Positions 11,502 through 30,122 of a stretch of DNA of 64,000 nt are shown here, one piece after another. The notes under the pieces are model-generated. The model had not been told where the DNA came from. It saw only the letters and a list, made by a program, of their open reading frames with translations, and ran no database searches. Position numbers and translations under genes: made by a program. This DNA comes from an uncultured Actinomycetota bacterium. Lineage in GTDB: Bacteria > Actinomycetota > Acidimicrobiia > Spongiisociales > UBA4744. The stretch's first letter is position 1. The number at the start of each line of letters is the position of its first letter. Location of the stretch: assembly GCA_963717135.1 (NCBI GenBank), contig CAVQVN010000009.1, positions 632,269 through 696,268 on the forward strand, given 5' to 3'.

Positions 11502-12484
11502 TTCGGCACCTCGTTTGGCTCCCAGGCGAAATGGCAGGCGGCTCGCTGGACAACAGAGGGTCCGGTGAGATCCGGTTCCGTCTGCTCACAAATGTCCTCC
11601 GCAATCGGGCAGCGAGGTCGGAAACGACACCCGCTCGGGAGGTTCAACGCACTGGGAGGTTCGCCCTTCAGCGCAGACTCACCGGGCGCCTTCTTCACGC
11701 CGAACTTCGGGGCCGCCGCCATGAGCGCTTTCGTGTACGGATGGCGCGGATCGTCGAACATCTCTGCCGTCGGGCGATCTTCCACCGCAGTGCCCAGGTA
11801 CATCACGACCACCCGATCGCTCACGTAGCGCACCACTGCCAGGTCGTGAGAGATGAACATCAGGGTCAGGCCCAGCTCTTCGCGAAGCGTGTTGAGAAGG
11901 TTGAGCACCGGCGCCTGCACCGAAACATCGAGGGCAGCGACCGACTCGTCGGCGATCAACACCTCCGGCTCCAGGGCAAGCGCCCGGGCGATGCCAACCC
12001 TCTGGCGCTGTCCACCCGACATCCGGCGCGGGCGGGCTTTCAACAGAGAGGTGGGAAGCTCTACGAGGTCCATCAACTCGGCACAGCGGTCGGCGATCTT
12101 CGCCGGAGGAACGAGCCGGTGTACCCGGAGCAGCTCCGACAGCATCTTTTCAACGGTGAGAGAGGGATTGAGCGATGAACTCGGGTCCTGGAACACCATC
12201 TGAATTCGACGCATCGTCGCTCGAGCGCGGCCCGCTCCCAGCGTTTCACCGTCGAGACGAATCGACCCAGACGCAATCGGCACCAAACCTGTAATGGCTT
12301 TGGCCAGGGTCGATTTGCCACAGCCCGACTCACCAACAATGCCGATCGACTCGCCGCGATCGACTGCGAAGGAGATCCCGTCGACGGCAGTCAGAATCGG
12401 GGGCTTCTCGCCTTTCAGACGGGCCGCGAGCAATGACCCCACCTTGAAGTTGACGGTCACGTCCCGCACCTCGAGGAAGGTCAC
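11498..12484 (-). CDS. ABC transporter ATP-binding protein (OppF/DppF-like)
   Basis: Walker A GESGCGKST, signature LSGGQRQRV, Walker B, C-terminal oligopeptide-type extension. Confidence 0.9.
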   Translation of the reverse strand: MTFLEVRDVTVNFKVGSLLAARLKGEKPPILTAVDGISFAVDRGESIGIVGESGCGKSTLAKAITGLVPIASGSIRLDGETLGAGRARATMRRIQMVFQDPSSSLNPSLTVEKMLSELLRVHRLVPPAKIADRCAELMDLVELPTSLLKARPRRMSGGQRQRVGIARALALEPEVLIADESVAALDVSVQAPVLNLLNTLREELGLTLMFISHDLAVVRYVSDRVVVMYLGTAVEDRPTAEMFDDPRHPYTKALMAAAPKFGVKKAPGESALKGEPPSALNLPSGCRFRPRCPIAEDICEQTEPDLTGPSVVQRAACHFAWEPNEVPN

Positions 12485-13461
12485 CGGCTCGCCCCCTCGA
12501 TGAGATCGGGATGGATACAGGCGGTAGTCCGGCCTTCCGAGATGGGTCGCAGCTCATGGTCGGCGCTGGTGCAGTCTTCCCGGGCGTAGTCGCAACGTGG
12601 CGCAAACCGGCATCCGGGAGGGAAGTCACGCGGATCGGGAGGATGTCCGTCGATGCCCTCCAGCCTCTCGATGCTGGCTTGGAACGACGGCACCGACTTC
12701 ATCAACGCCTCGGTATACGGGTGCTGCGGATATGAGAACACATCGTCGACCGGTCCGGTTTCCACGATCCGTCCGGCGTACATGATCGCCAGACGATCAC
12801 ACAGCTCACCGAGCACCGCCAGGTCGTGGCTGACGAAGATGATCGACATGCTGAGTTCGGCGCGGAGCTTCTGGAGCAAGCCGAGGATCTGATCCTGGAT
12901 GGAGACGTCGAGCGCCGTGGTCGGTTCGTCGCACAGCAGCAGCTTGGGTGTGGTCGACAGCGCGGTAGCGATCATCACTCGCTGCCGGAGTCCACCCGAC
13001 AATTGGTGAGGCCACATCTTCGCCCGGCGTTCCGGGCTGGGGATTCCGACCTGGCGCATCAGCTGGATGGCCCGCTCCCGGGCTTCCGACTTGCCGAGAC
13101 CCTCATGAACTCGAGGTCCTTCTGCGATCAGATCGCCCACCTTCATCGTCGGGTTCAATGCCGTCATGGGCTCCTGAAAGATGATCGAAATGCCGTGCCC
13201 GTGAACGTCGGCCGGCCGGTAGGGAATCGGTTCCTCCCGGCCGAGGGCGAAGCGGAGCTCTCCCCCGGTGGTGGCCGCCGGCGGAAGGATGCCGATGATC
13301 GCCTTGAGGGTCAGGCTCTTGCCCGATCCGGATTCGCCGGCGATGCCGAGCGCCTCGCCACGATCCAGCGAAATGGTAACGCCGTCGACCGGGGTGACCG
13401 TCCCGGCGCCGATCTCGAAAGAGACCTCCAAATCGGCTACTTCCAGGATGCGATCGGTCAT
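12481..13461 (-). CDS. ABC transporter ATP-binding protein (OppD/DppD-like)
   Basis: Walker A GESGSGKS, signature [10 protein letters not shown]-terminal OppD-type Cys-rich tail. Confidence 0.9.
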
Positions 13462-14339
13462 GCCCGGAGACCTTCTTCGAGGCCCTCACCGACGAGCGAA
13501 AGGCCGAGCCCGAGGCCGACGATCACGAGGCCGGGAACGGTGGCCAGCCACCAGTTGGTGCGGATGAACGGCTGGCCGTCGGCGATCATCGCCCCCCACT
13601 CCGGTGTCGGTGGGGGAATCCCCAAACCGAGGAACGAGAATGCCGCCAGCGCCAGAGTGGCGAAGACGATGTCACTCGGCAGGTACACCAGAGTCTGGTT
13701 GATCACGTTCGGGAAGACGTGCACCCGGAGGATCCGCATTCGGCGCAGTCCGGCCACGCGGGCAGCCTGCAGGTAGTCGAGGTCCTTTACTCGCAAAACC
13801 TCGGTGCGGATGATGCGGGCGTAGATCACCCAGGCCAGCACCGTAAAAGCGACGATGATCGAGGTCGCCCCCTGGCCGAGGGCGAACACCAGGACGATCA
13901 CGAGAATGTAGGCCGGGAAAGCCTGAACGACATCGGCCGTCCGCATGATGGCGGTGTCGGCCCACCGGCCAAAGAACCCGGCGATCGCGCCAAGGATGGT
14001 TCCCAAAATGGCAGGCAACAGGGCTCCCAGGAAACCGATCGGAATATCGATCCGGGCCGCATAGAGCAGCCGGGAGAACACATCGCGTCCCAGCTCGTCG
14101 GTGCCGAGCCAGTGGTCGACGCTGGGGGCGGCCAGCTTGTTGACCGGGTCGATCGCCAGGGGATCGTGGGGCGCCAGAACCGGGGCGAGGAGAGCAATGA
14201 GCACATAGAAGATCAGAATCCCCAGGCCAACCCACACCTTCTTCGGAAGGCGTTTCCACATCCCCGGCTCGCCGAAGGGCACCGCGACATGGGGAAGGTC
14301 GGGGAGGGCTTCGAAGGAGGGGGCCGCGGGCGTCGTCAT
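13458..14339 (-). CDS. ABC transporter permease (DppC/OppC-like)
   Basis: The listed ORF extends to 14975, but its first 212 aa are out-of-frame overlap with the upstream permease. The ATG at 14339 gives an ATGA overlap with the permease-B stop and a native-looking N-terminus (MTTPAAPSFEALPD…). The EAA-like loop is present. Confidence 0.85.
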   Translation of the reverse strand: MTTPAAPSFEALPDLPHVAVPFGEPGMWKRLPKKVWVGLGILIFYVLIALLAPVLAPHDPLAIDPVNKLAAPSVDHWLGTDELGRDVFSRLLYAARIDIPIGFLGALLPAILGTILGAIAGFFGRWADTAIMRTADVVQAFPAYILVIVLVFALGQGATSIIVAFTVLAWVIYARIIRTEVLRVKDLDYLQAARVAGLRRMRILRVHVFPNVINQTLVYLPSDIVFATLALAAFSFLGLGIPPPTPEWGAMIADGQPFIRTNWWLATVPGLVIVGLGLGLSLVGEGLEEGLRA

Positions 14340-15277
14340 TCGATCTCCACTCTTGGGTCGAGGATGGCGGTGACGATGTCGGCGAGGAGGTAGACGGCCA
14401 CCACAACCAGGGCGAAGAGAAGTGTGTATCCCTGAACTGAAGGGAGGTCGCGGCCTCGGGCAGCGAGGACCAACCCCTGTCCGACCCCCGGTAAGGCGAA
14501 GGTGGTTTCGATCACCACCGCTCCGAAGAGCAGGAAACCGATCTCGATGGCCACCAGGGTCACCCCGGGCCCGGCCGAGTTGCGCAGCACGAAGCGTCGC
14601 ACGAGGCGTCCGCCGGCCACCCCGATCGAACGGGCAGTCGAGATGTAATCGGATTCCATGACCTGAATCATGGAAGCTCGCAGCCCCCGAATGATGAAGG
14701 GAGACGATGCGATCGCCAGCGTCAGCCCCGGCAAGATCATCGAATGGAGACGCTCCCCGAATGTCTCCCCGAACCCGCCGGCCGGAAACCACCCGGTCTT
14801 GAGCGCCACCAGGAGCAACAGGATGACCCCGGTCCAGAATGAAGGCATGCTCAACCCGAGGAGGCCGAAGCCACGGATGATCTGGTCGGCAGCCCGGTCT
14901 TTGCGAAGAGCCGCGATGACCCCCAAGGGGACACTGATCAGCAGCGTCATCAAGACGCCCGTCACCATCAGCCACACCGTGACCGAGATACGCTCACCGA
15001 TGATGCTCGATACCGGTTTGCGCGACTTGTAGGAGTAGCCGAGATCGCCCTGTAGAACATCGCCTACGTAGCGGCCGTACTGCACGATGATCGGATCGTT
15101 GAGACCCAACTCCTCGCGAACCTCCTCGAGTTGCTCTTCCGAGGCTCGAAGCCCAACAATTTGGCGGGCAGGATCGCCCGGGGTGATTTGGAGCACCAGA
15201 AAGACAACCAGCACGATTCCGAACAGCATCGGGATAGTCTGCAGCAGTCGCTTGATGACGAAGCCAAACCGACCCAA
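14336..15277 (-). CDS. ABC transporter permease (DppB/OppB-like)
   Basis: 313 aa. Six TM segments and a binding-protein-dependent transport signature. Confidence 0.9.
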   Translation of the reverse strand: MGRFGFVIKRLLQTIPMLFGIVLVVFLVLQITPGDPARQIVGLRASEEQLEEVREELGLNDPIIVQYGRYVGDVLQGDLGYSYKSRKPVSSIIGERISVTVWLMVTGVLMTLLISVPLGVIAALRKDRAADQIIRGFGLLGLSMPSFWTGVILLLLVALKTGWFPAGGFGETFGERLHSMILPGLTLAIASSPFIIRGLRASMIQVMESDYISTARSIGVAGGRLVRRFVLRNSAGPGVTLVAIEIGFLLFGAVVIETTFALPGVGQGLVLAARGRDLPSVQGYTLLFALVVVAVYLLADIVTAILDPRVEIE

Positions 15278-15314
15278 GCGATAGTCCTCCCCTCAAATTT
15301 GTAGTGTTCTTCCT

Positions 15315-16895
15315 CTATCCGCCCAGGCCGATGGTGTCGTAGTAGTAGAGACCCCAGGGAGCCGACCAAAAGCCGGTCAGATCTTGATCCACGGCATGCA
15401 GATAGGAACCCTCCGCAACGGCGATGGCCGCCGCGTTATCGATGGCCTCGTCCTGGATCTTGGCCACGATCGCCTCCATGTCGGCCCCGGTTGCCGCTTC
15501 GCTATAGGCGAGGAAGTCCTCGAACAAGGTGTCGGTCTCGAACCCGCTAAACAGCCACCCGGTGGCCATGATCCAGTTCATTGGATCGGCCATGTCGGGC
15601 TGGATGGCACCGTAGTTCCAGATGGTCATGTCGGCGTCGATCGAAAATGCCCGGTCGAGGAAGGCACCGGTCTCGAGCGAAGCCAGGGTCACATCGATCC
15701 CGATCTCGGCCAGGTTGGCCTGGATGATCTGCACCACCAGCGTGTCCAGTTCGTTGCCGGCGTCGTAGATCAGCTCGACGTCGGCTCCCCCCGCTGCCGA
15801 TGATTGTCCGATCAGATCCTGGGCCTTGGCCAGGTCCCGACGGAAGTACGGCTTGGTCGGCGGAACCCAGTTCCAGATATTCGGCGCCAGGATCCCGCTG
15901 GGAAGGCCGAAATACTCGCCGAGGGCCGCGTCGATCGCCTCGTAGTCGATCGCGTAGGCGACGGCCTGGCGGACCAGCAGATCATCGAATGGAGGCCGCA
16001 GAACGTTCATGCCGATGTGCTCGACCGAGTGGATCGTGCACTTGTACACGTCGGCCGGGTCGTACTGCGGGGCAATCGTCGGCGACAGGTACTCGTTGAT
16101 CTGCACGTCGCCACTCTGGAAAAGAATCTGTCGTTCGGTCTCATCGGCGATCACTTCGAGGACCAGCTCATCGACCTTGGGTCGCTCCGGGTCGTAGAAG
16201 TAGGGGTTCGGGGACAAAACGATGCGTCCACCCAGGGACCATTCGTCGACCACGAACGGTCCGGCGCCGATAGGACTGTTGTAGTACTCCTCTTCGGTCA
16301 TGCCGGCGAAGTCCTTGGGCATGATTCCCGAGACCGACGACGCCATGATCGGTGTGATGGTGTTGTCGGGATAGGCGAGCTCGAGCACCACCTGGTTTCC
16401 TTCGCCGGTGACTGCGGCGATGCTCTCCCAAGACAAGCCGAAGTTGGGTCCGGCTCGCCAAACGTCGAGGGAGAAGGCAACGTCTTCGGCGGTGACAGGC
16501 TCACCGTTGCTGAACCGGGCGTTTTCCTGCAAGGTGAAGGTGAGGGTCAGCCCTTCTGGGTCATATACCCAGCTCTCGGCCAAGCCCGGCTCGAGAGAAA
16601 CCCCATCGGCCCCGAAGCGGAGCAGGGGTTCCATAACGGCCAGATGGGTCTGGTAGCTGGAGTAGGCGGCGGCCGAGTCGAGTACCCATCCGTCGAAGGA
16701 CTCGAAGCGAACCGCCGTCAGAGTGCCGCCTCCTTCGGGAGGGACCCCAGTTGTATCGGTGCCGCCCGCAGTGGTCTCGGTGCCGGACTGCGTTGTGGCG
16801 GTGCCGCCCGCGGTTGTCTCTGTAGTTTCCGTGCCGCACCCCGACGCCAGCAACGCCAGCACCGCAAGGAATGCAATTGCCGTTCTCAATCTCAT
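15315..16895 (-). CDS. ABC transporter substrate-binding lipoprotein, family 5 (peptide/nickel/opine type)
   Basis: SBP_bac_5-like. Start reassigned to ATG 16895 (MRLRTAIAFLAVLALLASGCG… lipobox) with a GGAGAGGAG RBS. A Thr/Gly-rich linker follows the Cys. AmtR-box-like palindrome 56 bp upstream. Confidence 0.85.
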   Translation of the reverse strand: MRLRTAIAFLAVLALLASGCGTETTETTAGGTATTQSGTETTAGGTDTTGVPPEGGGTLTAVRFESFDGWVLDSAAAYSSYQTHLAVMEPLLRFGADGVSLEPGLAESWVYDPEGLTLTFTLQENARFSNGEPVTAEDVAFSLDVWRAGPNFGLSWESIAAVTGEGNQVVLELAYPDNTITPIMASSVSGIMPKDFAGMTEEEYYNSPIGAGPFVVDEWSLGGRIVLSPNPYFYDPERPKVDELVLEVIADETERQILFQSGDVQINEYLSPTIAPQYDPADVYKCTIHSVEHIGMNVLRPPFDDLLVRQAVAYAIDYEAIDAALGEYFGLPSGILAPNIWNWVPPTKPYFRRDLAKAQDLIGQSSAAGGADVELIYDAGNELDTLVVQIIQANLAEIGIDVTLASLETGAFLDRAFSIDADMTIWNYGAIQPDMADPMNWIMATGWLFSGFETDTLFEDFLAYSEAATGADMEAIVAKIQDEAIDNAAAIAVAEGSYLHAVDQDLTGFWSAPWGLYYYDTIGLGG

Positions 16896-16950
16896 GGTCC
16901 CGCTCTCCTCTCCAGGAGTAGTCCAGCTCGAATCCCACTCCAAAACCCAT

Positions 16951-16966
16951 CCTATCGAGGGATAGG
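16951..16966. promoter_or_regulatory. AmtR-box-like palindrome CCTATC-GAGG-GATAGG (copy 1) upstream of the ABC transporter operon
   Basis: Seen directly. 6+6 inverted repeat, 4-nt spacer. Confidence 0.6.
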
Positions 16967-16989
16967 TAGCCTCGCCGGTGGCACTCGAG

Positions 16990-17931
16990 TCAATCGATTT
17001 CCCTTTCCTCCTCGGTCAGCCGCCCGTATTGATCGGGGCGACGGGTATCGAACAATCCAAATGTCAACCAATCTCTGCGCTGGTCAAGATCCAGGTCGGC
17101 AACCAACACGGTCGGCTCAGCCCGGGGAGCCTCGACGAGGACCCGGCCGTAGGGATCGGAGACAAACGACGAGCCATAGAACGTGAGCGGTCCCTCGGTT
17201 CCGATCCGGTTCACTGCCACCATGTAGGTTCCGTTGGCCAGACCATTGGCGGTGATCATGTGCTTCCACAACGGCTGGGTGTCGAAATCACCGAGATCGG
17301 GTTCGGATCCGATGGCCGTTGGATAGACGAGAACCTCGGCGCCTTCGAGTGCATAGATGCGGGCCAGTTCTGGGTTCCACTGATCCCAGCAAGTCGGGAA
17401 GCCGAAGCGAGCGCCGGCCACTTCGACCACCGGGAATCCGGTGTTTCCGGCGGCGAAGTAGCGGTCCTCGTGGTAGTAGGGGAACTGGGGGATATGGACC
17501 TTGCGGGTGCGGGCTATCACCTCGCCTGCCGGATTCACGGCGATGGCCGTGTTGAAACCGGCACCATCCGGATCCTTCTCGTAGAGAGAAGCGTGAACCA
17601 CGGCGCCGGTTTCGGCGGCCATCAACCGGGCCAGTTCCGTGGTTGGACCGTCGCCGATCGTCTCCGCGTACGTCCGGGCCGCTTCTTGATCATCGGGGAC
17701 GACGGCGAAATATGGCGCCAGGGTCAGCTCCTGAAGGCAGATCACTTGTGCCCCTTGGTCTGCCGCCCTTCGCATGCCCTCACAGAGCGTCGCCTGATGC
17801 GCGGCGGGATCGGGATGCCAAGCGCATTGCACCGCTCCGATCCGCAACGAAGGTCGACCGCTGGGCGGTTCGACTCTCATGGGCGAGTCGAGCGGATCGT
17901 CGATCCGGGTGATCAATCTGAATTCGGTCAT
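16990..17931 (-). CDS. aguB: N-carbamoylputrescine amidase (carbon-nitrogen hydrolase / nitrilase superfamily)
   Basis: 313 aa. CN-hydrolase fold with E-K-C triad context (…GFPTCWDQW…). Translationally coupled to the agmatine deiminase gene upstream. Confidence 0.8.
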   Translation of the reverse strand: MTEFRLITRIDDPLDSPMRVEPPSGRPSLRIGAVQCAWHPDPAAHQATLCEGMRRAADQGAQVICLQELTLAPYFAVVPDDQEAARTYAETIGDGPTTELARLMAAETGAVVHASLYEKDPDGAGFNTAIAVNPAGEVIARTRKVHIPQFPYYHEDRYFAAGNTGFPVVEVAGARFGFPTCWDQWNPELARIYALEGAEVLVYPTAIGSEPDLGDFDTQPLWKHMITANGLANGTYMVAVNRIGTEGPLTFYGSSFVSDPYGRVLVEAPRAEPTVLVADLDLDQRRDWLTFGLFDTRRPDQYGRLTEEEREID

Positions 17932-18935
17932 GGGGTTCCTCCCGGCGCCGGGACTTGCATGGTGGTGCAGTGCAGACCTCCGCCTGCATATGAGACCATT
18001 TTTCCGGGGACGGCGACGACCTCCCGTTCGACGAAAGCCCGCTGCAGCACTTCGATGGCCGCGATGTCGGAGGCAAAGTCCCCGGTTCCAACGATCACGG
18101 CCCCGTTGATCAGGTAGATATTGGCGTAGGCCACTCCGACTTCGGTCCCGTCGAACGGTTCAGTCGGAAGTCGGGGCAATTCGATCACTTCGAGATTGCG
18201 GCCGGCGGCGTCGGTCTCCGCGTCGAGTGCTTGGCGATCTGCGGCCATCAGCTCGAAATCTGGATCATCCGGGTCCTCGCACGTCTGGAGAAGGACCACC
18301 CCGGGACGGACAAATGTGCACACTGCATCGACGTGTCCATCGGTGACGAAGTCGGCGGAGATACCCCACGGCAGCCAGACGACCTTGCGGATGCCGAGTC
18401 GATCGTTCAGCTCCTGCTCGATTTCCTCCCGCGACATGCCGGGATTGCGATTCGGATTGAGCAGGCACTGCTCGGTGGTGATCAGCGTGCCTTCTCCGTC
18501 GACGGTGATTGCCCCACCCTCGAGCACCATGTCCGACCCGATGCGCTGGATGCCGAGGTGATCGAGTATCGCCGCCGCGCTCGCCGCCGTCTGGTCGTAA
18601 GGTGGATAGCGTTCGCCCCATGCGTTGAAACGGAAATCGACGCCGGCCCGCGCCCCGTCATCGTCGACGACCACGATCGGACCTGAGTCGCGCACCCAGG
18701 CCGATTCATACGGGATCGCGACCAGCTCGATTCCCGAGGTCAGTGCCCGGCGGGCACCTTCGACGTCCGCCGGGTTCACCATCATGGTGAGCGGCTCGAA
18801 GGCGGCAATGGCATTGGCCAGCCCGGCGTAGGTTTCTCGGGCGGCTTCCAGGTGTGGCCCCCAGCTGGGGTGGACGGGCCAGGCCATCAACGAACGCTCG
18901 TGCAGTTCCCACTCGGCCGGCATGCGAAAGCTCAT
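17928..18935 (-). CDS. aguA: Agmatine deiminase
   Basis: Peptidyl-arginine-deiminase (Porphyromonas-type) fold. Start at ATG 18935 (MSFRMPAEWE…). Conserved blocks WVRDSGP, GGAITVDGEGT, GGGLHCTTMQ (C-terminal catalytic Cys). Confidence 0.85.
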   Translation of the reverse strand: MSFRMPAEWELHERSLMAWPVHPSWGPHLEAARETYAGLANAIAAFEPLTMMVNPADVEGARRALTSGIELVAIPYESAWVRDSGPIVVVDDDGARAGVDFRFNAWGERYPPYDQTAASAAAILDHLGIQRIGSDMVLEGGAITVDGEGTLITTEQCLLNPNRNPGMSREEIEQELNDRLGIRKVVWLPWGISADFVTDGHVDAVCTFVRPGVVLLQTCEDPDDPDFELMAADRQALDAETDAAGRNLEVIELPRLPTEPFDGTEVGVAYANIYLINGAVIVGTGDFASDIAAIEVLQRAFVEREVVAVPGKMVSYAGGGLHCTTMQVPAPGGTP

Positions 18936-20560
18936 CCTCGCCCTCCGGTTGGTCCTCCGTGCACGATCTCGCCACCGAGGACGGTCATCCACACGCCGAG
19001 GTGGCGAATCTCGCTCGGATCGACAGAAAAAATATCGCCGTCGACGACGGTCAGGTCGGCCAGCTTCCCGGGCTCGATCGAGCCGAGGCGATCCTCGGCG
19101 AAGATGGCGTGGGCGGCGTCGATGGTGTGGGCCCGCACCGCTTCCTCAACGGTCAGTGCCTGATCGGCCCCGATCGGGCGTCCCCCCATGGTCTTGCGAA
19201 GCACTGCGTTGGTGACCGTCTCCAGCGGCCGGTACGAGGTGACGTCGGAGTCGCTGCTCAGCACCACCTTGACTCCGGCATCGAGTTCGGCGCGCATCGG
19301 CTGCAACCGGTGGGCACGATCACCGAGCCGGGAGAGGAACTCGTCGCCCTGGTCGTGCAGGTAGTTGGGCTGGTTGATGGCGAAGACGCCGAGCCGGGCC
19401 ATGCGATCGATCTGATCTGGTCTCGGGTAGCCGCAGTGCTCGATGCGATGGCGGGGATCGGGACGAGGATGCGCCTCCATGGCATCCTCGAAGGCGTCGA
19501 GGACCGCCTCGATGGCCAGATCCCCCTGAGCATGGACGCCGACCTGCCACCCCCGGCTATGTGCCCTGTCGATCATGGCCCCCAGTTCAGCCGGCTCCCA
19601 GTACCGGAGGCCTGCGAACTCGCCGTCCTCGCCGTAGGGCTCAGAGAAGACCGCCGTGCCTCCGATCAACGAACCGTCCATGTAGAACTTCATCGGACCC
19701 AGCCACAGAAGGTCGTCGCCGAAGGGACCGGCCAGCCCGATCGAGCCGTACTCCTCGAGTTGATGGGACAGTGGCATGATCGCCACTCGTAGCCACCATT
19801 TCCCGCGGCGGCGGGCCTCGCGGTAACCGGCCATCTCGCGGCGCGTCACCTGGGCGTCGCACACGGTTGTCAGACCGGCTGCGAGGAAAGCCCGGCCGGC
19901 TCGCTCTATGGCGCCGACCAGTTCGTCGAGGCCGGCTTCCGTGTGGAAGTTGGGACCGTGAGAGCCGATGTCGACCACCACCGGTTGCACGAGACCCTGG
20001 GCGGCATCCTGGAACAACCCGGTAACGCGGCCCTCGCCGTCTCTCACGAGCCGGCCCCCTTTCGGATCCGGGGTAGCGTCGTTGAGGCCGGCGGTCTCGA
20101 GCGAGCGTGTGTTGACCAGGAGATAATGGCCCGAGACGTGGGAGATAGCGACCGGATGGTCCGTAGTGGCGCGGTCGAGATCCCACCGGGTTGGAGCCCT
20201 GTCGTACTTACCGTGGTCAAAGCCGAAGCCTCTGATCCACAGCCCCGGTGGCGTGTCGGCTGCCACGGCTGCCACTGCGGCGACGAGGTCCTCCACCGAA
20301 GCGACTGCCGGATAACGGGCGTCGATCGACGCCAGCGACTCGCCGGTCATCAGATAGTGGTTGTGGGCGTCGATGAAGCCGGGCACCATGGTCCGGCCGC
20401 CTAGATCGATCCTCGCCGCGTCCGGATAGGTTCTGAGAACCTCTTCATCGCCGCCCACCATCAGAATTCGTCCGGTCCGAACGGCCACCGCCTCGGCCCA
20501 TGACCCGGAACGATCGGCGGTATACACCGAGCCGCGGTGGAACACCCGCAGGTCGTTCAT
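18932..20560 (-). CDS. Metal-dependent amidohydrolase (amidohydrolase-3 family)
   Basis: Start placed at ATG 20560 (MNDLRVF…), which makes an ATGA overlap with the upstream aminotransferase stop. GFIDAHNHY motif. Confidence 0.8.
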   Translation of the reverse strand: MNDLRVFHRGSVYTADRSGSWAEAVAVRTGRILMVGGDEEVLRTYPDAARIDLGGRTMVPGFIDAHNHYLMTGESLASIDARYPAVASVEDLVAAVAAVAADTPPGLWIRGFGFDHGKYDRAPTRWDLDRATTDHPVAISHVSGHYLLVNTRSLETAGLNDATPDPKGGRLVRDGEGRVTGLFQDAAQGLVQPVVVDIGSHGPNFHTEAGLDELVGAIERAGRAFLAAGLTTVCDAQVTRREMAGYREARRRGKWWLRVAIMPLSHQLEEYGSIGLAGPFGDDLLWLGPMKFYMDGSLIGGTAVFSEPYGEDGEFAGLRYWEPAELGAMIDRAHSRGWQVGVHAQGDLAIEAVLDAFEDAMEAHPRPDPRHRIEHCGYPRPDQIDRMARLGVFAINQPNYLHDQGDEFLSRLGDRAHRLQPMRAELDAGVKVVLSSDSDVTSYRPLETVTNAVLRKTMGGRPIGADQALTVEEAVRAHTIDAAHAIFAEDRLGSIEPGKLADLTVVDGDIFSVDPSEIRHLGVWMTVLGGEIVHGGPTGGRG

Positions 20561-21951
20561 CGCATCATTTCCTCGGCCGCCGCATGGGCCAGCGGGATCG
20601 CTTGGCGCAAGGTGGCAACGATGAAGTCCACATCGTCGCGGGTGATGATGAGGGGAGGTGACATGATGTTGAGGTTCTCCACCGGTCGCACGATCAATCC
20701 GAGAGCGTCGCATTCGTTGGATACCCTTTTGCCGATATCTACCTCGTACGGGTAGGCCTCACCGGTCTCGGTATCACGCACGAACTCGATGCACACCATC
20801 AGATGGGATCCACGCACATCACCGACCATGGGCAACTCTCGCAGCGTCTCCAACTGCTCCATGAAGTACGGCCCGATGGCGCGGACGTGCTCGAGGATCC
20901 CTTCGCTCTCCAGGATCTCGATGTTCTTCAGAGCCGCGGCGCAGGACACCGGGTGCCCTCCGTAGGTGAATCCGAGGGGCAGATAGCCTGGTCCGCGACC
21001 CGACTCGGATATCACGTCAAATATCCTGTCCGAGAAGATCGTCGCTCCGAGCGGGAGGTAACCGGAGGTGAGGCCTTTGGCCGACGTGATTATGTCGGGT
21101 TGGATTCCGAACAGCTTCTCGGAGGCGAACCACTCTCCCAGTCGGCCGAAGCCGGTTACCACTTCGTCAGATACATAGATGATGTCGTTGGCTCGGCAGA
21201 ACTCCCAGATCCGCTTGAGGTAGTTGTCGGGTGGAGGAATCACGCCGCCGGCTCCCATTATCGGCTCGGCGAAAAAGGCCGATACGTACCCGGCTCCGCC
21301 GAGTTCCTCTACCTTGGCCTCGAACTCGGCAACCAGTTGATCGGCGAAGGCTTTCTCAGATAACCCTTTTCCGTACCGGTAGATGTTCGGCGAACTCAGA
21401 TGGTGCACATTGTCGAGGAACTCGAACTCGTCGATCCTGTCACCGGGCTTACCGCCGATGGAAACGGCCGCGTAGGTCTGACCGTGATAGGCATCGACCC
21501 GCGAGATCACATGTCGTTTCTCGGGCTTGCCGCGTACAGCTTGGTAGAACTGGGCGATGCGGTAGGCCAGGTCGTTGGCGGTCGACCCGCCGGTGCTGAA
21601 GAACACATGGTTCAGATCGCCCGGAGCCAACTCGGCGAGTTTGGTGGCCAGGTCGGCAGCCGGAATGTGGGTCATGTCCACGAAAGGATTCGAGTAAGCC
21701 AGTCGCCGGACTTGATCGGCAATGGCTTCCACCATGTCTTCACGACCCAGACCAATGTTCGTGCACCACAATCCACCGACTGCATCGACGTATCGCTTGC
21801 CGTTCGTGTCGGTGATGTAGGCACCTGCGCCGGAAGCGATCGGAAGGGCGCCCTCCTCGGCGAAGGTGTCGAACACCTGATAGGGATGGACGTGATGGCG
21901 TTTGTCGCGTTCGACCACGGCCGGGGTTTCGGTGCTCATGTAGTTGGTCAT
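20557..21951 (-). CDS. Class-III (ω-amino acid / diamine) aminotransferase
   Basis: 464 aa. PLP fold-type I class III blocks (…GGLWCTNIGLG…, DEVVTGFGRLGEWF, …SAKGLTSGYLPLGA…). Confidence 0.9.
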   Translation of the reverse strand: MTNYMSTETPAVVERDKRHHVHPYQVFDTFAEEGALPIASGAGAYITDTNGKRYVDAVGGLWCTNIGLGREDMVEAIADQVRRLAYSNPFVDMTHIPAADLATKLAELAPGDLNHVFFSTGGSTANDLAYRIAQFYQAVRGKPEKRHVISRVDAYHGQTYAAVSIGGKPGDRIDEFEFLDNVHHLSSPNIYRYGKGLSEKAFADQLVAEFEAKVEELGGAGYVSAFFAEPIMGAGGVIPPPDNYLKRIWEFCRANDIIYVSDEVVTGFGRLGEWFASEKLFGIQPDIITSAKGLTSGYLPLGATIFSDRIFDVISESGRGPGYLPLGFTYGGHPVSCAAALKNIEILESEGILEHVRAIGPYFMEQLETLRELPMVGDVRGSHLMVCIEFVRDTETGEAYPYEVDIGKRVSNECDALGLIVRPVENLNIMSPPLIITRDDVDFIVATLRQAIPLAHAAAEEMMR

Positions 21952-21983
21952 GTCCGGGTCCTCTCCCTACAGGTTGATGTTCT

Positions 21984-23117
21984 TCAGAATCCGGGGATCT
22001 GTTTTGGGAAGTAGTCCTCCATGTCACCCTCTCGTTCGATGTCGAGCGTCGCGCAATGCAGAGCCCCTCCAAACATCGAAACGTCGATGAAGTCGACCGG
22101 AACGACGTCGAAGCCCAGCCCGTCCAGCTGGTCCATGAAGGCCACCTCGTTCGACTCCACGCAGACCGTGTTGGGATCGAGCGAGAGCACGTTGTAGCCG
22201 AGCGACTCGTGACACATCGAGTAGGGCGGCTGCTTGGCCCCCGACACCGGAGCGCCTTCGATGATCTCCCAGTCGTTCATTCGGAGCAACTCGTGGAACT
22301 CGGGTATCAACGAGGGGTATTTCGGGTTGACGACTATCTGGCCGGGGCGCAGGGGCACGATGGTCACATCGATGTGCCATGGCTGAACCGTCCCACCGAA
22401 CCCGAGAACGTGGACTCGGTAGCCGCGCGACTCAAAGTGGCGTTTGAACCAGTCGATACCGGCACGATTGCTCGGCGCCGAATGCTGGATGAAGATGTCC
22501 TTGCCGAACCGCATGGCGTCCGCCGTGTCGAACAGTGGTTCCTTCTCGGTTAGGTGGAACTCAAAGCGCTCCATGCGTCGGGTTAGCTCCGCCTCGGTCC
22601 ACTTGTTGAAGAAGTCTTCCCAGTAGCCGGGAACGTACGACTCGTCCGACAGCCGGGGCTTGGGTGCCGCCTCCCACAAGAAGTTCGGATCCTCCTTGAA
22701 GTACTGCTCCAGCAGCGGTTTGTAGGCCAGGAACTCGAACCAACGAGCTCGCTGAGACATGGTCGCCTCGAGGATCTCGTGGCCGTAGGCCATGAGAATG
22801 TCGCGGGGGGGCATGGTCCCAAACATGTGGCTGCACTCCCAATCGGGCGTGCGGACGTATTGGCGGTCGTCCATCGAAGTCGGCCGGTCTACCCTGATCC
22901 CCCGGTTGGCGAGCATCGCGGCGAAACTCTCCATTTGCTCCGTCGCCTTCTCCACGTACGTGTCGGGAATAGGCGTCCACTCTCCCGGCTTGAGCCCGAG
23001 TTCGGGAAGATCGAGAACCATCCCCGCTTCGGGTGCCCCCACCATCCGGCTGTCGATTCGACCAACAATGACATGCTTGAGAGGGTCCCACTCATTCCAC
23101 GAGTTGACCTTCGTCAT
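21984..23117 (-). CDS. Amidinotransferase (glycine/inosamine amidinotransferase family), paralog 1
   Basis: 377 aa. Collinear with the AGAT/StrB family as recalled from memory (NEWDPL…VIVGR, PRDIL…GNEILEATM, WEAAPKP, FDAADA…RFGKDIFIQHS, HIDVT, GGALHCATLD with the catalytic Cys near the C-terminus). First gene of a 5-gene coupled operon. Confidence 0.85.
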   Translation of the reverse strand: MTKVNSWNEWDPLKHVIVGRIDSRMVGAPEAGMVLDLPELGLKPGEWTPIPDTYVEKATEQMESFAAMLANRGIRVDRPTSMDDRQYVRTPDWECSHMFGTMPPRDILMAYGHEILEATMSQRARWFEFLAYKPLLEQYFKEDPNFLWEAAPKPRLSDESYVPGYWEDFFNKWTEAELTRRMERFEFHLTEKEPLFDTADAMRFGKDIFIQHSAPSNRAGIDWFKRHFESRGYRVHVLGFGGTVQPWHIDVTIVPLRPGQIVVNPKYPSLIPEFHELLRMNDWEIIEGAPVSGAKQPPYSMCHESLGYNVLSLDPNTVCVESNEVAFMDQLDGLGFDVVPVDFIDVSMFGGALHCATLDIEREGDMEDYFPKQIPGF

Positions 23118-23153
23118 CGGTCACCTTCCGGCAGAGGAGCGATTACCGGACTA

Positions 23154-23169
23154 GCCTATCAAATGATAG
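23154..23169. promoter_or_regulatory. AmtR-box-like palindrome CCTATC-AAAT-GATAGA (copy 2) between amidinotransferase-1 operon and divergent TetR/AmtR-like gene
   Basis: Seen directly. 37 bp upstream of the amidinotransferase-1 start. Confidence 0.6.
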
Positions 23170-23283
23170 ATAGACTGTCGAAGAGGAACCCGAAATGCCC
23201 TTCATGAGCCCGACCGTGGGGCTTTGGCAAAGATATGCCGAGTTTCGGCAGGAGCCATCCGACCGGTCAGATTTGGAGTGTCC

Positions 23284-23937
23284 ATGACGAAGGCAACCGC
23301 CGGCGATGAGCCCGGGACTCGTGAACGCATCCTGGTCGAAGCTTCGCGCCTCCTGTCGCTCAACGGATACCGTGCCACAACGACCCGAGAAATCGCAGCC
23401 GCCGTGGGCATCAGTCAGCCGTCACTGTTCTTCCACTTCCCGACCAAGCGAGCGATCGTTGAGGAGTTGTATCGGTCCGATCTCATCCCGGCCTTGCGAG
23501 GCTTCGAGAACGTCGTAGCGAGCCAAGGCACACCGGGCGCCAAACTATTCGCGATGATCGCCGGTGAAGTGGATCGGGCCATGGGTTCCCCCTTCGACAT
23601 GCGTGCCTATATCAGCTTTGAGGCTCTCAATGACCCCGAGTTGGAGGAATTCCGCGATCTCCTACAGCAGTTCGATGACCTGACCGGCGAGTTGATTCGC
23701 GCCGGCCAGAAGTCCGGTCAGTTCATCAAGGGAGACGCGTGGTTGGCCCAACAGATGGTGAGCGGGTTCCTGGCCCGATCGAACCTGTTCCTCACTACAG
23801 ATGAGAGTCGTCGACCGTTCCACCCGGAAGAATCGGCCTCGATGATCTTGCGAGCTCTTCTCGCGGATCCAGAAACGCTGACCACTGTGAGAGCGGAGGC
23901 GGTCCATCTGATCACGGCCTACAACGCCGGCTTGTAG
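23284..23937 (+). CDS. TetR-family transcriptional regulator, AmtR-like
   Basis: 217 aa from ATG 23284. HTH region TTTREIAAAVGISQPSLFFHFPTKRAIV resembles C. glutamicum AmtR as I recall it (…QIADAVGIRQASLYYHFPSK…). An AmtR-type box lies in its own upstream region. Confidence 0.75.
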   Translation: MTKATAGDEPGTRERILVEASRLLSLNGYRATTTREIAAAVGISQPSLFFHFPTKRAIVEELYRSDLIPALRGFENVVASQGTPGAKLFAMIAGEVDRAMGSPFDMRAYISFEALNDPELEEFRDLLQQFDDLTGELIRAGQKSGQFIKGDAWLAQQMVSGFLARSNLFLTTDESRRPFHPEESASMILRALLADPETLTTVRAEAVHLITAYNAGL

Positions 23938-23953
23938 CCTGGTTGCGGGTAGC

Positions 23954-23971
23954 GCGACCTATCAAGAACAG
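23954..23971. promoter_or_regulatory. Motif CGACCTATCAAGAACA (half-site-like) ~50 bp upstream of amidase start; near-identical copy at 56391-56408
   Basis: Seen directly. Function unknown. Confidence 0.3.
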
Positions 23972-24015
23972 CTAGCCAAGCGCACATAGACAGAATCGAG
24001 AGAACTGGAGTGCTC

Positions 24016-27603: not shown

Positions 27604-27628
27604 TTCGCTATACCTCCGTTGCGAGCCG

Positions 27629-28843: not shown

Positions 28844-28866
28844 GGCCACTGCCTCCTGGTTGTTTT

Positions 28867-28882
28867 CCCTATCGGGTGATAG
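28867..28882. promoter_or_regulatory. AmtR-box-like palindrome CCTATC-GGGT-GATAGG (copy 3) in divergent aminotransferase-2 / amidinotransferase-2 promoter region
   Basis: Seen directly. 24 bp from the aminotransferase-2 start codon and 66 bp from the amidinotransferase-2 start. Confidence 0.6.
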
Positions 28883-28947
28883 GTAGTATATCGCCCACGA
28901 CCGCGCCGGACAACGCGGAATCCCCTGGACAAGAGTGAGGAGACGCT

Positions 28948-30081: not shown

Positions 30082-30087
30082 GAGCCA

Positions 30088-30112
30088 TCAGTTGTCAGTC
30101 GTCAGTTATCAG
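30088..30112. repeat. Tandem heptamers cagttgt/cagtcgt/cagttat immediately after stop codon
   Basis: Seen directly. Related to the tracts at 9834-9865 and 33340-33376. Confidence 0.35.
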
Positions 30113-30122
30113 GAGGGTCACC

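What the first reader, a model, noticed from the sequence alone, without database searches (positions are those of the whole stretch)
16990..23117. Five-gene translationally coupled operon: amidinotransferase - ω-aminotransferase - amidohydrolase - agmatine deiminase - N-carbamoylputrescine amidase
All gene junctions from 23117 down to 16990 are 4-nt ATGA overlaps or short gaps, under one upstream AmtR-type box (23154).
Pairing an amidinotransferase with the agmatine deiminase pathway (agmatine to N-carbamoylputrescine to putrescine + CO2 + 2 NH3) is unusual. It suggests the amidinotransferase either makes agmatine (arginine + putrescine to agmatine + ornithine) or converts other guanidines into a form AguA/AguB can strip of nitrogen.
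The interposed amidohydrolase-3 enzyme has no assigned substrate.
Basis: partly seen in the sequence, partly recalled or inferred. Interest (0 to 1): 0.6.

Follow-up and report, generated by a model that had tools for sequence, protein, structure and literature searches.

The report
Nitrogen-scavenging amidinotransferase–agmatine deiminase operon
An uncultured Acidimicrobiia bacterium strings an unusual amidino-group-transferring enzyme together with the standard agmatine-to-putrescine enzymes under one nitrogen-type repressor site, which suggests, but does not prove, a new way of stripping nitrogen from guanidine compounds.

Summary
Five minus-strand genes (23117→16990) are joined by a 32-nt gap and three ATGA overlaps. 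A CTATC-N4-GATAG palindrome sits 38 nt upstream, next to a divergent TetR gene whose best solved relatives are C. glutamicum AmtR.

The family assignments hold:
- g1: AGAT-family amidinotransferase
- g2: pyruvate-type ω-transaminase
- g3: intact but unassigned Amidohydro_3 enzyme
- g4, g5: aguA and aguB

The reading needs widening. The box occurs five times in the window (0.1 expected). The string runs on into a Dpp-type ABC transporter and a second Amidohydro_3 gene. A second AGAT paralog lies 6 kb away.

In 12 close Acidimicrobiia contigs the boxed g1–g2 pair is constant. g3–g4–g5 is a movable module: fused, separately boxed, reordered, reduced to g5, or absent. No distant AGAT or aguA locus shows the pairing.

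g1 belongs to an uncharacterised subfamily with a QPW flap and an aromatic residue in place of AGAT Arg322, as in the polyamine amidinotransferase HsvA. I therefore favour (about 0.4) a link through the agmatine/putrescine pool. Nearly as likely, the two modules are only co-regulated. This is a new variant of known pathways, of moderate interest.

The parts
23156..23169 (.). AmtR-type operator CTATCAAATGATAG, 38 nt upstream of g1 and in the g1 | regulator intergenic region
   Evidence: 5 sites against 0.10 expected; a box lies 26-85 nt upstream of g1 (or of g2-g1) in all 12 close relatives.
23284..23937 (+). TetR-family regulator, AmtR-like. The ORF opens at TTG 23224; the likely start is ATG 23284, giving 217 aa. 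An amidase-signature gene follows at 24010-25446.
   Evidence: the best solved relatives are C. glutamicum AmtR (5MQQ, 5DY1; E 6e-12). DNA-reading residues T42, Q53, S55 and H59 are kept, and H43 is Arg as in TetR, which reads CTATC. One search gives the start.
21984..23117 (-). g1: AGAT-family amidinotransferase of an uncharacterised subfamily (flap GTVQPW; Tyr in place of AGAT Arg322)
   Evidence: human AGAT, HsvA, SxtG and StrB1 match at E 1e-59 to 1e-48 over the full length. The equivalents of the catalytic triad Cys407/His303/Asp254 are kept. define the subfamily residues.
20557..21951 (-). g2: class-III, pyruvate-type omega-transaminase
   Evidence: NF005447 scores 674 bits, above its cut-off of 618; the best solved relatives include entries named putrescine aminotransferase (6GWI) and polyamine:pyruvate transaminase (9J4Z).
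18932..20560 (-). g3: Amidohydro_3 (YtcJ-like) binuclear metallohydrolase, substrate unknown
   Evidence: PF07969 at 340 bits. HxH(66,68), K291, H343, H375 and D437 are invariant; the model has pLDDT 88.9, and only the uncharacterised 3ICJ and 3IGH are close.
17928..18935 (-). g4: agmatine deiminase (AguA) homolog, from a clade that has lost the acidic amine-binding residue
   Evidence: PF04371 at 361 bits; the best solved relatives are plant, Chlorobium and lactic-acid-bacterium agmatine deiminases (207-237 bits). TIGR03380 scores 304, below its cut-off of 382; motif SADFVTDGHVD.
16990..17931 (-). g5: N-carbamoylputrescine amidase (AguB) homolog
   Evidence: the best solved relative is Medicago CPA (167 bits). 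Glu48, Lys121, Cys158 and the amine-binding Glu187 are kept; homologs at 55-65% identity sit beside aguA in at least 15 unrelated loci. TIGR03381 scores 237, below its cut-off of 410.
16952..16965 (.). Second AmtR-type box (CTATCGAGGGATAG) in the 94-nt gap between g5 and the binding-protein gene. On the minus strand it is also a hairpin followed by GGGTTTTG.
9873..16895 (-). Downstream same-strand genes: family-5 solute-binding lipoprotein (16895-15315), two permeases (15277-14336, 14339-13458), two ATPases (13461-12481, 12484-11498) and a second Amidohydro_3 paralog (11501-9873). All junctions after the binding-protein gene are 4-nt overlaps.
   Evidence: In L172 and L173, g3-g4-g5 and the binding-protein gene form one tight string, with a 20-nt gap.
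28869..28882 (.). Third box of the same regulon, between AT3b-AlaDH (28843-26482, minus strand) and the AGAT2 paralog (28948-30081, plus strand)
   Evidence: the same arrangement is seen in L005 and L055.
28948..30081 (+). AGAT2: second amidinotransferase paralog, 51% identical to g1. It keeps the AGAT-type residues M302, R322 and S355.

Best explanation
This is a nitrogen-scavenging operon of an uncultured Acidimicrobiia bacterium. It is probably repressed by the divergently encoded AmtR-like TetR protein through CTATC-N4-GATAG operators.

It is a fusion of two modules of one regulon.
- Module A (g1-g2) is a constant pair: an amidinotransferase whose pocket looks polyamine-type rather than amino-acid-type, and a pyruvate-dependent omega-transaminase.
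- Module B (g3-g4-g5, normally tied to the Dpp-type ABC transporter) is an unassigned metallo-amidohydrolase plus the classical agmatine deiminase and N-carbamoylputrescine amidase.

Proposed mechanism (inferred, not shown):
- All enzymes meet at the agmatine/putrescine pool.
- g1 reversibly moves an amidino group between a guanidino donor (arginine or an imported guanidine) and putrescine, making agmatine.
- g4 and g5 irreversibly hydrolyse agmatine to putrescine + CO2 + 2 NH3. This pulls the transfer forward and regenerates the carrier.
- g2 removes the de-amidinated amine, or surplus putrescine, by transamination to pyruvate. The alanine dehydrogenase of the same regulon can then release that nitrogen as ammonium.
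- The direction of g1 is unresolved. It may feed AguAB, or it may salvage the amidino group of agmatine into arginine.
- g3 may free the substrate from an imported conjugate.
For: **Shown**
- Gene order and translational coupling.
- No internal promoter or terminator signal above chance.
- Five boxes against 0.1 expected.
- A box upstream of g1 in 12 of 12 relatives.
- The regulator's best solved relatives are AmtR, and its DNA-reading residues fit a CTATC half-site.
- g1 is a full-length amidinotransferase with an intact Cys/His/Asp triad.
- g4-g5 is a canonical aguA-aguB pair by homology and by conserved adjacency in many unrelated loci.
- g5 keeps the Glu that binds the terminal amine of the putrescine moiety in Medicago CPA.

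**Supporting the link between the modules**
- g1 and its subfamily replace AGAT Arg322 by Tyr/Trp/His/Leu and the flap Met302 by Trp. From my own recollection of the AGAT structure papers, Arg322 is the alpha-carboxylate ligand.
- The spermidine-preferring HsvA also has Trp at position 322.
- AGAT2 keeps Arg322, Met302 and Ser355.
- g2's close solved relatives include putrescine and polyamine:pyruvate transaminases.
- aguAB, or aguB alone, stays within 10 kb of g1-g2 in 8 of 12 close contigs despite rearrangements. In L004, g5 alone is fused to g2.
- A distant locus, L002 (63% AGAT identity, Trp322), pairs the enzyme with other guanidino-modifying (DDAH/ADI-type) genes, a CN-hydrolase, an amidohydrolase and a class-III transaminase.
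Against: - g1-g2 occurs without aguAB nearby in L009, L010 and L169/L170, where it sits in an MttB/corrinoid methyltransferase cluster. L007 also shows none, but only about 3 kb of that contig lies beyond g2.
- In L172/L173 and L008, g3-g4-g5 or g4-g5 belong to the transporter operon and are separated from g1-g2. In L001 and L172/L173 they carry their own box.
- None of about 70 distant AGAT-like loci has a PAD_porph gene nearby, and no aguA locus outside the close clade has an AGAT gene within 10 kb.
- The relatives are closely related, so the shared neighbourhood may be inherited rather than selected.
- g4 and g5 score below NCBIfam's equivalog cut-offs.
- The g4 clade has lost the residue equivalent to plant AIH Asp220, which binds agmatine's amine.
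- No assay of any kind exists.
Confidence: 0.4

Rival explanations
1. The two modules are co-regulated but biochemically independent. g3-g4-g5 with the ABC transporter catabolise imported agmatine or an agmatine conjugate. g1-g2 handle a different guanidino compound with a non-polyamine partner. The two lie side by side only because genes of one AmtR-type regulon cluster in an island.
For: - The modules behave as separable units in relatives: separate units with their own boxes, reordering, or loss.
- The g1-g2 pair sits in an MttB/corrinoid context at 80% identity.
- aguAB is never linked to AGAT outside this clade.
- Other members of the regulon shuffle around the same loci: CoA-transferase, amidase and an isochorismatase-like gene.
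Against: - The window and L005 show tight translational fusion, and L004 has a g2-g5 fusion.
- The pocket residues of g1 and the relatives of g2 both point to polyamines.
- If g1 touches agmatine or putrescine at all, the modules share metabolites whatever their transcription.
Confidence: 0.33
2. g4 and g5 do not act on agmatine and N-carbamoylputrescine. They act on a related guanidino/ureido compound, and the operon degrades that compound.
For: - Both score below the equivalog cut-offs: 304 against 382, and 237 against 410.
- The operon-linked g4 clade replaces the acidic amine-binding position with Val/Ala after an aromatic residue. Most of the 88 homologs compared have Asp or Glu there.
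Against: - All of g4's best solved relatives are agmatine deiminases, and more distant true agmatine deiminases (H. pylori, C. jejuni) score far lower.
- The Medicago AIH paper says bacterial enzymes recognise the amine differently.
- g5 keeps Glu187 and the C4 channel residues of Medicago CPA.
Confidence: 0.1
3. g1 works mainly as a hydrolase. The amidino-cysteine intermediate is attacked by water and gives urea, so no acceptor amine is needed.
For: - The flap Met302 is replaced by Trp in g1.
- In AmtA, changing the equivalent Met abolished transfer while the donor was still hydrolysed (PMC4887976).
Against: - Trp at this position is conserved across a large subfamily, which is not what an accidental loss of transfer would look like.
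- No urease is present in the window.
- Dedicated ureohydrolases already exist for this chemistry, and one is encoded 2.3 kb away.
Confidence: 0.07
4. The operon is biosynthetic. The transaminase makes an amine that g1 amidinates to build a guanidino metabolite, as StsC and StrB1 do in streptomycin synthesis.
For: All characterised bacterial amidinotransferases are biosynthetic: StrB1, SxtG, HsvA, AmtA and CyrA.
Against: - No tailoring, ATP-grasp, NRPS or PKS genes are present.
- The neighbours are uptake and hydrolytic nitrogen-releasing enzymes under an AmtR-type operator.
- The window is ordinary chromosome with housekeeping genes at both ends.
Confidence: 0.05

Closest known systems
Agmatine deiminase pathway aguA-aguB with a putrescine:pyruvate transaminase (known from Pseudomonas aeruginosa aguBA/spuC, from my own knowledge; the routes from agmatine to putrescine are reviewed in PMC12283126)
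   Same: g4, g5 and g2 are homologs of the three steps agmatine to N-carbamoylputrescine to putrescine to 4-aminobutanal. aguA-aguB adjacency is conserved.
   Different: - An amidinotransferase and an Amidohydro_3 enzyme are fused into the same string.
- The control is AmtR-type.
- The transporter is Dpp/Opp-type rather than polyamine-type.
- g4 lacks the acidic amine-binding residue.
HsvA, the polyamine amidinotransferase of phevamine biosynthesis (PDB 5WPI; PMC6187163)
   Same: It has the same fold and catalytic triad. It scores 203 bits against g1, and it carries an aromatic residue (Trp) where AGAT has Arg322. It amidinates a polyamine using arginine as the donor.
   Different: - HsvA is biosynthetic and sits with ATP-grasp ligases.
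- It keeps Met302 and Ser354/Ser355, where g1 has Trp and Cys-His.
- It is no closer to g1 than human AGAT is.
L-arginine:glycine amidinotransferase (AGAT/GATM) and AmtA
   Same: Full-length homology (204 bits) and the Cys/His/Asp triad. The second paralog, AGAT2, keeps Met302, Arg322 and Ser355, and its EAHPM flap resembles AmtA's DMHPM.
   Different: g1 has a flap one residue longer (GTVQPW), with Arg322 replaced by Tyr and Ser354-Ser355-Lys356 replaced by Cys-His-Glu. Its context is catabolic.
AmtR regulon of Corynebacterium glutamicum (box tttCTATN6AtAGat/aA; PMC2723105; it includes creatinine and creatine utilisation, PMC8864220)
   Same: - The regulator is TetR-type and its best solved relatives are AmtR.
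- The palindrome is CTAT-N6-ATAG and occurs at several promoters.
- The targets are uptake systems and nitrogen-releasing enzymes, including guanidino-compound catabolism.
   Different: - The regulator shares only about 49 bits with AmtR.
- The half-site is extended to CTATC, and an Arg replaces AmtR His43.
- Response to nitrogen status or GlnK is untested.
- The target genes are different.
Arginine dihydrolase ArgZ/AgrE of cyanobacteria (first annotated as an amidinotransferase; that annotation is discussed in PMC2242806, the enzyme's later assignment is from my own knowledge)
   Same: If arginine is the donor, the net chemistry of the proposed cycle is the same: a guanidino group is converted to CO2 + 2 NH3, leaving ornithine.
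   Different: ArgZ does this in one polypeptide without a carrier amine. g1 belongs to the true AGAT family, and the hydrolysis here would be done by AguA and AguB.

Membership tests
Amidinotransferase family (AGAT/StrB1/HsvA/SxtG) | Full-length sequence homology to solved amidinotransferases | tested here: met
   E 2.7e-59 to 2.3e-48, covering residues 4-370 of 377.
Amidinotransferase family (AGAT/StrB1/HsvA/SxtG) | Catalytic triad Cys407/His303/Asp254, and guanidino-binding Asp170/Asp305 (human numbering) | tested here: met
   C355, H248, D197, D106 and D250 are all present.
Amidinotransferase family (AGAT/StrB1/HsvA/SxtG) | Pfam PF02274 gathering score | tested here: not met
   20.9 bits against a cut-off of 22.8, on the C-terminal part only. 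The model is centred on arginine deiminase, so this says little. About three quarters of the 120 listed homologs also lack the precomputed domain.
Arginine:glycine amidinotransferase proper (AGAT) | Amino-acid-binding residues Arg322, Ser354/Ser355 and flap Asn300/Met302 | tested here: not met
   g1 has Tyr267, Cys302/His303, Gln and Trp247. AGAT2 does keep Arg, Ser and Met.
Amidinotransferase family (AGAT/StrB1/HsvA/SxtG) | Transamidination activity, and identity of donor and acceptor | not testable with these tools
   Needs an enzyme assay.
Agmatine deiminase AguA | PAD_porph fold with the catalytic Cys, His and Asp motifs | tested here: met
   PF04371 at 361 bits. WVRDSGP, GHVD and GGGLHCTT align with Medicago AIH Asp94, His224/Asp226 and Cys366.
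Agmatine deiminase AguA | NCBIfam equivalog score (TIGR03380) | tested here: not met
   304 bits against a cut-off of 381.8.
Agmatine deiminase AguA | Acidic residue binding the terminal amine of agmatine (Medicago AIH Asp220) | tested here: not met
   Val in g4 and Val/Ala in its whole operon-linked clade, against Asp/Glu in most homologs. The source paper notes that bacterial enzymes bind the amine differently.
Agmatine deiminase AguA | Conserved adjacency to an aguB gene | tested here: met
   g5 homologs lie beside g4 homologs in many unrelated metagenomic loci.
N-carbamoylputrescine amidase AguB/CPA | Nitrilase-fold catalytic Glu48/Lys121/Cys158, and the amine-binding Glu187 with the hydrophobic C4 channel | tested here: met
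   alignment read: LQEL, RKVHIP, CWDQW and PTAIGSEP are all kept.
N-carbamoylputrescine amidase AguB/CPA | NCBIfam equivalog score (TIGR03381) | tested here: not met
   236.8 bits against a cut-off of 410.25. It is still by far the best-scoring model.
AmtR-type nitrogen repressor and regulon | TetR-family protein closest to AmtR, with DNA-reading residues conserved | tested here: met
   the top five solved hits are AmtR. Thr42, Gln53, Ser55 and His59 are kept, Tyr57/Tyr58 are Phe/Phe, and His43 is Arg.
AmtR-type nitrogen repressor and regulon | Multiple CTAT-N6-ATAG operators in promoter regions | tested here: met
   5 sites against 0.1 expected. Four lie in intergenic regions; the fifth (9144) lies inside a mechanically listed ORF but upstream of its likely start; the box is conserved in relatives.
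AmtR-type nitrogen repressor and regulon | De-repression on nitrogen starvation (through GlnK in C. glutamicum) | not testable with these tools
   Needs expression data or binding assays.
Single five-gene operon | One transcript from the g1 promoter through g5 | tested here: inconclusive
   Overlapping junctions and the absence of internal signals support it. In relatives the g2/g3 junction is a boxed intergenic gap or is interrupted.

The most novel reading that the evidence does not exclude
Amidino transfer is an entry route for the catabolism of guanidino compounds. An uncharacterised AGAT subfamily (QPW flap, aromatic residue at position 322) loads amidino groups from varied guanidines onto putrescine. 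Putrescine then acts as a catalytic carrier that AguA and AguB regenerate, releasing CO2 + 2 NH3 without urea or urease. Related AGAT-like genes sit beside OTCase-like, creatinase-like, MttB/corrinoid and uptake genes in Anaerolineae, Desulfobacterales, SAR11 and others. They would be variants of the same logic, with ornithine as the carrier in some.
Probability: 0.25. Interest if true: 0.75.

Novelty: new variant of a known kind. Interest (0 to 1): 0.5.

Why it matters
Guanidino compounds (arginine, agmatine, creatine, guanidino acids) are nitrogen-rich and common in the environment. The known bacterial routes cleave them with ureohydrolases or deiminases that are specific to each compound.

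If an amidinotransferase funnels many of them into one deiminase pathway through a recycled carrier amine, that is a new catabolic principle. It would also be the first catabolic role for a bacterial AGAT-family enzyme.

The protein family involved is large and widespread in uncultured bacteria, including marine SAR11. NCBI records name it 'serine/threonine protein kinase'. Its role therefore affects how nitrogen cycling is read from metagenomes.

If the modules are only co-regulated, the finding is an ordinary, though nicely delineated, AmtR-type regulon island.

Tried and rejected
- **Riboswitch.** Rfam found only tRNA-Glu, so no guanidine riboswitch is present.
- **Internal signals.** No promoter or terminator signal inside the cluster exceeds chance.
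- **Amidase at 24010-25446 as AguY.** I tested whether it is the newly described non-canonical N-carbamoylputrescine amidase AguY/Tse8. Its best solved relative is NylA and no Tse8 chain appears among the hits, and at 478 aa it is shorter than AguY's roughly 568 aa. Rejected.
- **Ligand of the binding protein.** It has only weak matches (up to 113 bits) to peptide, nickel and opine binders. No inference was possible.
- **Function of g3.**
  - The AlphaFold model is good (pLDDT 88.9).
  - Foldseek against the PDB gives only the two uncharacterised Pyrococcus hydrolases. The next tier, at about 15% identity, is imidazolonepropionase, Lys/Arg carboxypeptidase and triazine hydrolases.
  - No assignment was possible.
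  - Contexts of more distant g3 homologs are varied. One again has a family-5 ABC transporter and two PAD_porph genes.
- **Literature.** Searches for an amidinotransferase with agmatine deiminase, with AmtR, with SAR11 or with MttB found no description of such a system.
- **Source record.** An exact look-up of g3's protein gave no contig record. Cluster membership shows an Acidimicrobiia genome with a 1.58-Mb contig.
- **Not attempted.** I did not model g1, because the tools do not expose coordinates and pocket geometry could not have been read.

Full report
**1. What is in the sequence**

On the minus strand there are five ORFs:
- g1: 23117..21984, 377 aa
- g2: 21951..20557, 464 aa
- g3: 20560..18932, 542 aa
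- g4: 18935..17928, 335 aa
- g5: 17931..16990, 313 aa

g1 and g2 are 32 nt apart, with a GGGAGAGGA ribosome-binding site between them. The other three junctions are ATGA start/stop overlaps, each preceded by a GGAGG-like site. The longer upstream starts listed mechanically for g3 and g4 disagree with homolog lengths.

A consensus scan finds no sigma-70-like promoter in 15000-24100. Terminator-like hairpins are not above chance: 8 found against 5.3 +/- 2.2. The only intergenic one is the palindrome at 16951-16966.

**2. What the genes are**

- **g1.** It matches human AGAT, HsvA, SxtG and StrB1 over its full length (E 1e-59 to 1e-48). The Cys/His/Asp triad and both guanidino-binding Asp residues are kept. 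It falls just under Pfam's ADI gathering score. That reflects the model, not the protein.
- **g2.** It passes the NCBIfam equivalog NF005447 (674 against 618). Its closest solved relatives are pyruvate-type omega-transaminases, including entries named putrescine and polyamine:pyruvate transaminase.
- **g3.** It is an Amidohydro_3 protein. The full binuclear-metal motif (HxH, Lys291, His343, His375, Asp437) is invariant in its family. A confident AlphaFold model (pLDDT 88.9) resembles only two uncharacterised Pyrococcus hydrolases.
- **g4.** All of its best solved relatives are agmatine deiminases (207-237 bits).
- **g5.** Its best solved relative is Medicago N-carbamoylputrescine amidase. The catalytic Glu/Lys/Cys are kept, and so is Glu187, which holds the terminal amine of the substrate.
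- **g4 and g5 together.** Homologs of g5 at 55-65% identity lie next to g4 homologs in at least 15 unrelated metagenomic loci, so g4-g5 is a canonical aguA-aguB pair. Two cautions apply. Both score below NCBIfam's equivalog cut-offs. The g4 clade found in these operons has Val/Ala where Medicago AIH has Asp220, the ligand of agmatine's amine, whereas most of the 88 homologs compared have Asp/Glu there.

**3. Regulation**

The palindrome at 23156-23169 fits the AmtR box CTAT-N6-ATAG (PMC2723105). Five copies occur in the window against 0.10 expected. All five have the form CTATC-N4-GATAG:

| Box | Position |
|---|---|
| 9144 | between an MFS transporter gene and an isochorismatase-like hydrolase gene |
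| 16952 | between g5 and the binding-protein gene |
| 23156 | between g1 and the regulator gene |
| 28869 | between a second transaminase-alanine dehydrogenase pair and a second AGAT paralog |
| 40597 | between an aldehyde:ferredoxin oxidoreductase gene and a family-III CoA-transferase gene |

Four of the five lie in intergenic regions. The fifth, at 9144, lies inside a mechanically listed ORF but upstream of its likely start.

The divergent TetR gene (likely start 23284) has C. glutamicum AmtR as its five best solved relatives (E 6e-12). It keeps AmtR's DNA-contact residues Thr42, Gln53, Ser55 and His59. His43 is replaced by Arg, the residue with which TetR reads the extra C of CTATC. That agrees with the extended half-site seen here.

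A box lies 26-85 nt upstream of g1, or of g2-g1, in all 12 close relatives. An AmtR-type repressor-operator system is therefore well supported. Its response to nitrogen is inferred by analogy only.

**4. Extent**

The same-strand string continues past g5. A 94-nt gap holds the second box. On the transcribed strand that box is also a hairpin followed by GGGTTTTG. After it come:
- a family-5 solute-binding lipoprotein
- two permeases
- two ATPases
- a second Amidohydro_3 paralog, ending at 9873

All junctions after the binding-protein gene are 4-nt overlaps.

Six kilobases upstream lies AGAT2 (28948-30081), 51% identical to g1. It is followed by a cobW-like putative GTPase gene and an aldehyde:ferredoxin oxidoreductase gene.

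An amidase, an agmatinase-like ureohydrolase, an alanine dehydrogenase and a second transaminase lie between the two AGAT genes. Both ends of the window are housekeeping chromosome: gltX, gatAB, ligA and mnmA. The source is an Acidimicrobiia genome.

**5. Comparative genomics**

I compared twelve close contigs, with g1 identity of 70-90%.

| Contig(s) | Arrangement |
|---|---|
| All 12 | boxed g1-g2 pair present |
| Window, L005 | g3-g4-g5 follow g2 directly, with overlap |
| L006 | g3-g4 follow after a 47-nt gap (contig ends in g4) |
| L001 | g3-g4-g5 follow after a gap that carries its own box |
| L172, L173 | an opposite-strand transaminase and a box separate g1-g2 from g3-g4-g5; the binding-protein gene follows g5 after 20 nt |
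| L008 | order is g4-g5-transporter-regulator-g1-g2 |
| L004 | g1-g2-g5, with g3 and g4 missing |
| L009, L010 | no aguAB nearby |
| L007 | no aguAB found, but only about 3 kb of contig lies beyond g2 |
| L169/L170 | no aguAB nearby; the pair sits among MttB-family methyltransferase and corrinoid-protein genes |

Among about 70 more distant AGAT-like loci (Anaerolineae, Desulfobacterales, Aminicenantes, Streptomyces, SAR11 and others) none has a PAD_porph gene within reach. Their recurrent neighbours are:
- class-III transaminases (19 loci)
- Opp-like ABC ATPases (17)
- OTCase-like genes (12)
- the cobW-like putative GTPase (12)
- creatinase-like genes (8)

None of the 80 aguA-homolog loci from metagenomes has an AGAT homolog within reach. 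A few of them belong to the close clade but are too short to tell.

One distant locus, L002 (63% AGAT identity), combines the AGAT with two DDAH/ADI-type genes, a CN-hydrolase, an OTCase, an amidohydrolase and a class-III transaminase. That is a partly analogous set.

So the pairing recurs, but only within one narrow clade. It is built from two movable modules of one regulon.

**6. Active-site comparison**

I aligned 80-odd family members on human AGAT. g1 and its subfamily (59% identity or more) differ from AGAT as follows:
- The 300-flap is one residue longer, G-T-x-Q-P-W, so Met302 becomes Trp.
- Arg322 is replaced by Tyr, Trp, His or Leu.
- Ser354-Ser355-Lys356 is replaced by Cys-His-Glu in the Acidimicrobiia clade.

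AGAT2 and the other large branch keep Met302, Arg322 and Ser355. AGAT2's flap (EAHPM) resembles that of the Arg:Lys enzyme AmtA (DMHPM).

HsvA prefers spermidine as acceptor (PMC6187163). It also has Trp at position 322.

My recollection of the AGAT crystal papers is that Arg322 and Ser355 hold the alpha-carboxylate of arginine and ornithine. I could not retrieve those papers, so this is a lead, not a test. On that basis g1's pocket looks suited to decarboxylated partners such as agmatine and putrescine.

**7. Mechanism**

The best-supported reading is a nitrogen-scavenging operon in which all five enzymes meet at the agmatine/putrescine pool.
- g1 exchanges amidino groups between a guanidino donor and putrescine.
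- AguA and AguB irreversibly hydrolyse agmatine back to putrescine, releasing CO2 and 2 NH3.
- g2 drains the de-amidinated amine or putrescine to pyruvate. The regulon's alanine dehydrogenase can then release ammonium.

What is shown: the architecture, the family memberships and the regulon. What is inferred: the polyamine specificity of g1, the direction of transfer, and any role for g3. g3 may release substrate from an imported conjugate, given its tie to the transporter in L172, L173 and L164.

I give the coupled reading 0.4. The rivals are:
- two biochemically independent, merely co-regulated modules: 0.33
- a non-agmatine substrate for g4 and g5: 0.1
- g1 acting as a hydrolase: 0.07
- a biosynthetic role: 0.05

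**8. Comparison with what is known, and novelty**

Each part has a known relative:
- aguAB with a putrescine transaminase
- HsvA and AGAT
- the AmtR regulon, which in C. glutamicum already covers creatinine and creatine use

I found no description of an amidinotransferase in a catabolic, AmtR-type operon with aguAB. Characterised bacterial amidinotransferases are biosynthetic. I rate this a new variant of a known kind. Interest is moderate because the distinctive claim, the amidino-carrier cycle, rests on context and a few residues.

Noticed in passing
window 26482-33339: There is a second amidinotransferase module. AGAT2 (28948-30081, plus strand) is 51% identical to g1 and keeps AGAT-type Met302, Arg322 and Ser355. 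It is divergent from a class-III transaminase (28843-27629) and an alanine dehydrogenase (27603-26482), with a box between them. A cobW-like putative GTPase gene (30123-31457) and an aldehyde:ferredoxin oxidoreductase gene (31423-33339) follow AGAT2. The same layout is seen in L005, with parts of it in L001 and L055.
   Followed up: partly
window 9144, 16952, 23156, 28869, 40597: Five CTATC-N4-GATAG boxes (0.1 expected) define a regulon island from about 7.9 to 41.8 kb. It includes an MFS transporter, an isochorismatase-like hydrolase, an ABC transporter, two AGAT genes, transaminases, an AOR and a family-III CoA-transferase. The same genes shuffle around g1-g2 in relatives.
   Followed up: partly
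window 38505-40462 (minus strand): An aldehyde:ferredoxin oxidoreductase appears split into two overlapping ORFs in different frames: AFOR_N in 40462-39581 and AFOR_C in 40049-38505. This is either a frameshift (pseudogene) or an assembly error.
   Followed up: no
protein clusters of g1: NCBI records name members of this AGAT-like family 'serine/threonine protein kinase', while JGI names them 'glycine amidinotransferase'. The kinase name conflicts with the full-length match to solved amidinotransferases.
   Followed up: partly
L075, L078, L080, L082 and others (SAR11 / Pelagibacteraceae), about 8.8-11.1 kb: In SAR11 genomes an AGAT-like gene (Arg322 type, flap GDPYPI) lies directly downstream of a creatinase-like M24 gene. 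The family assignment of that neighbour was made by eye from the sequence.
   Followed up: no
L165-L167 (Anaerolineae, 62% identity) and L169-L170 (Acidimicrobiia, 80% identity): In two distant lineages, QPW-type AGAT genes sit inside clusters of MttB-family methyltransferases with corrinoid proteins. In L169 and L170 there are also MTHFR-like, URO-D-like and DAO genes. This hints at a link with the breakdown of N-methylated compounds.
   Followed up: no
12 loci each, e.g. L014, L018, L033, L036, L058, L063, L066: OTCase-like genes and a conserved protein of about 450 aa, a cobW-like putative GTPase, are frequent neighbours of AGAT-like genes. The window has the GTPase-like gene beside AGAT2 but no OTCase.
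   Followed up: partly
window 18935-17928 (g4), and L001, L005, L006, L008, L083, L084, L115: The aguA clade found in these operons has the motif [AST][ADQ]D[FYLW][VA]TDGHVD. It lacks the acidic residue that most aguA homologs carry before TDGH, which is Asp220 in Medicago AIH.
   Followed up: partly
L002 7903-16530: A distant AGAT locus (63% identity, Trp322) is flanked by two DDAH/ADI-type genes. It also carries a CN-hydrolase, an OTCase, an amidohydrolase and class-III transaminase fragments. This is a partly analogous enzyme set with a different deiminase family.
   Followed up: no
L164 8001-17116: A g3 homolog (about 63% identity) lies next to a TetR gene and a family-5 ABC transporter, with two PAD_porph genes 5-8 kb away. 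This repeats the association of Amidohydro_3, transporter and deiminase outside the clade.
   Followed up: no
window 33377-37005 (minus strand): Two large MoeA-domain molybdopterin-biosynthesis genes lie between the two AOR genes. This suggests a tungsten- or molybdenum-dependent aldehyde oxidation branch in the island. The family call was made by eye from the translations, not by a family search.
   Followed up: no
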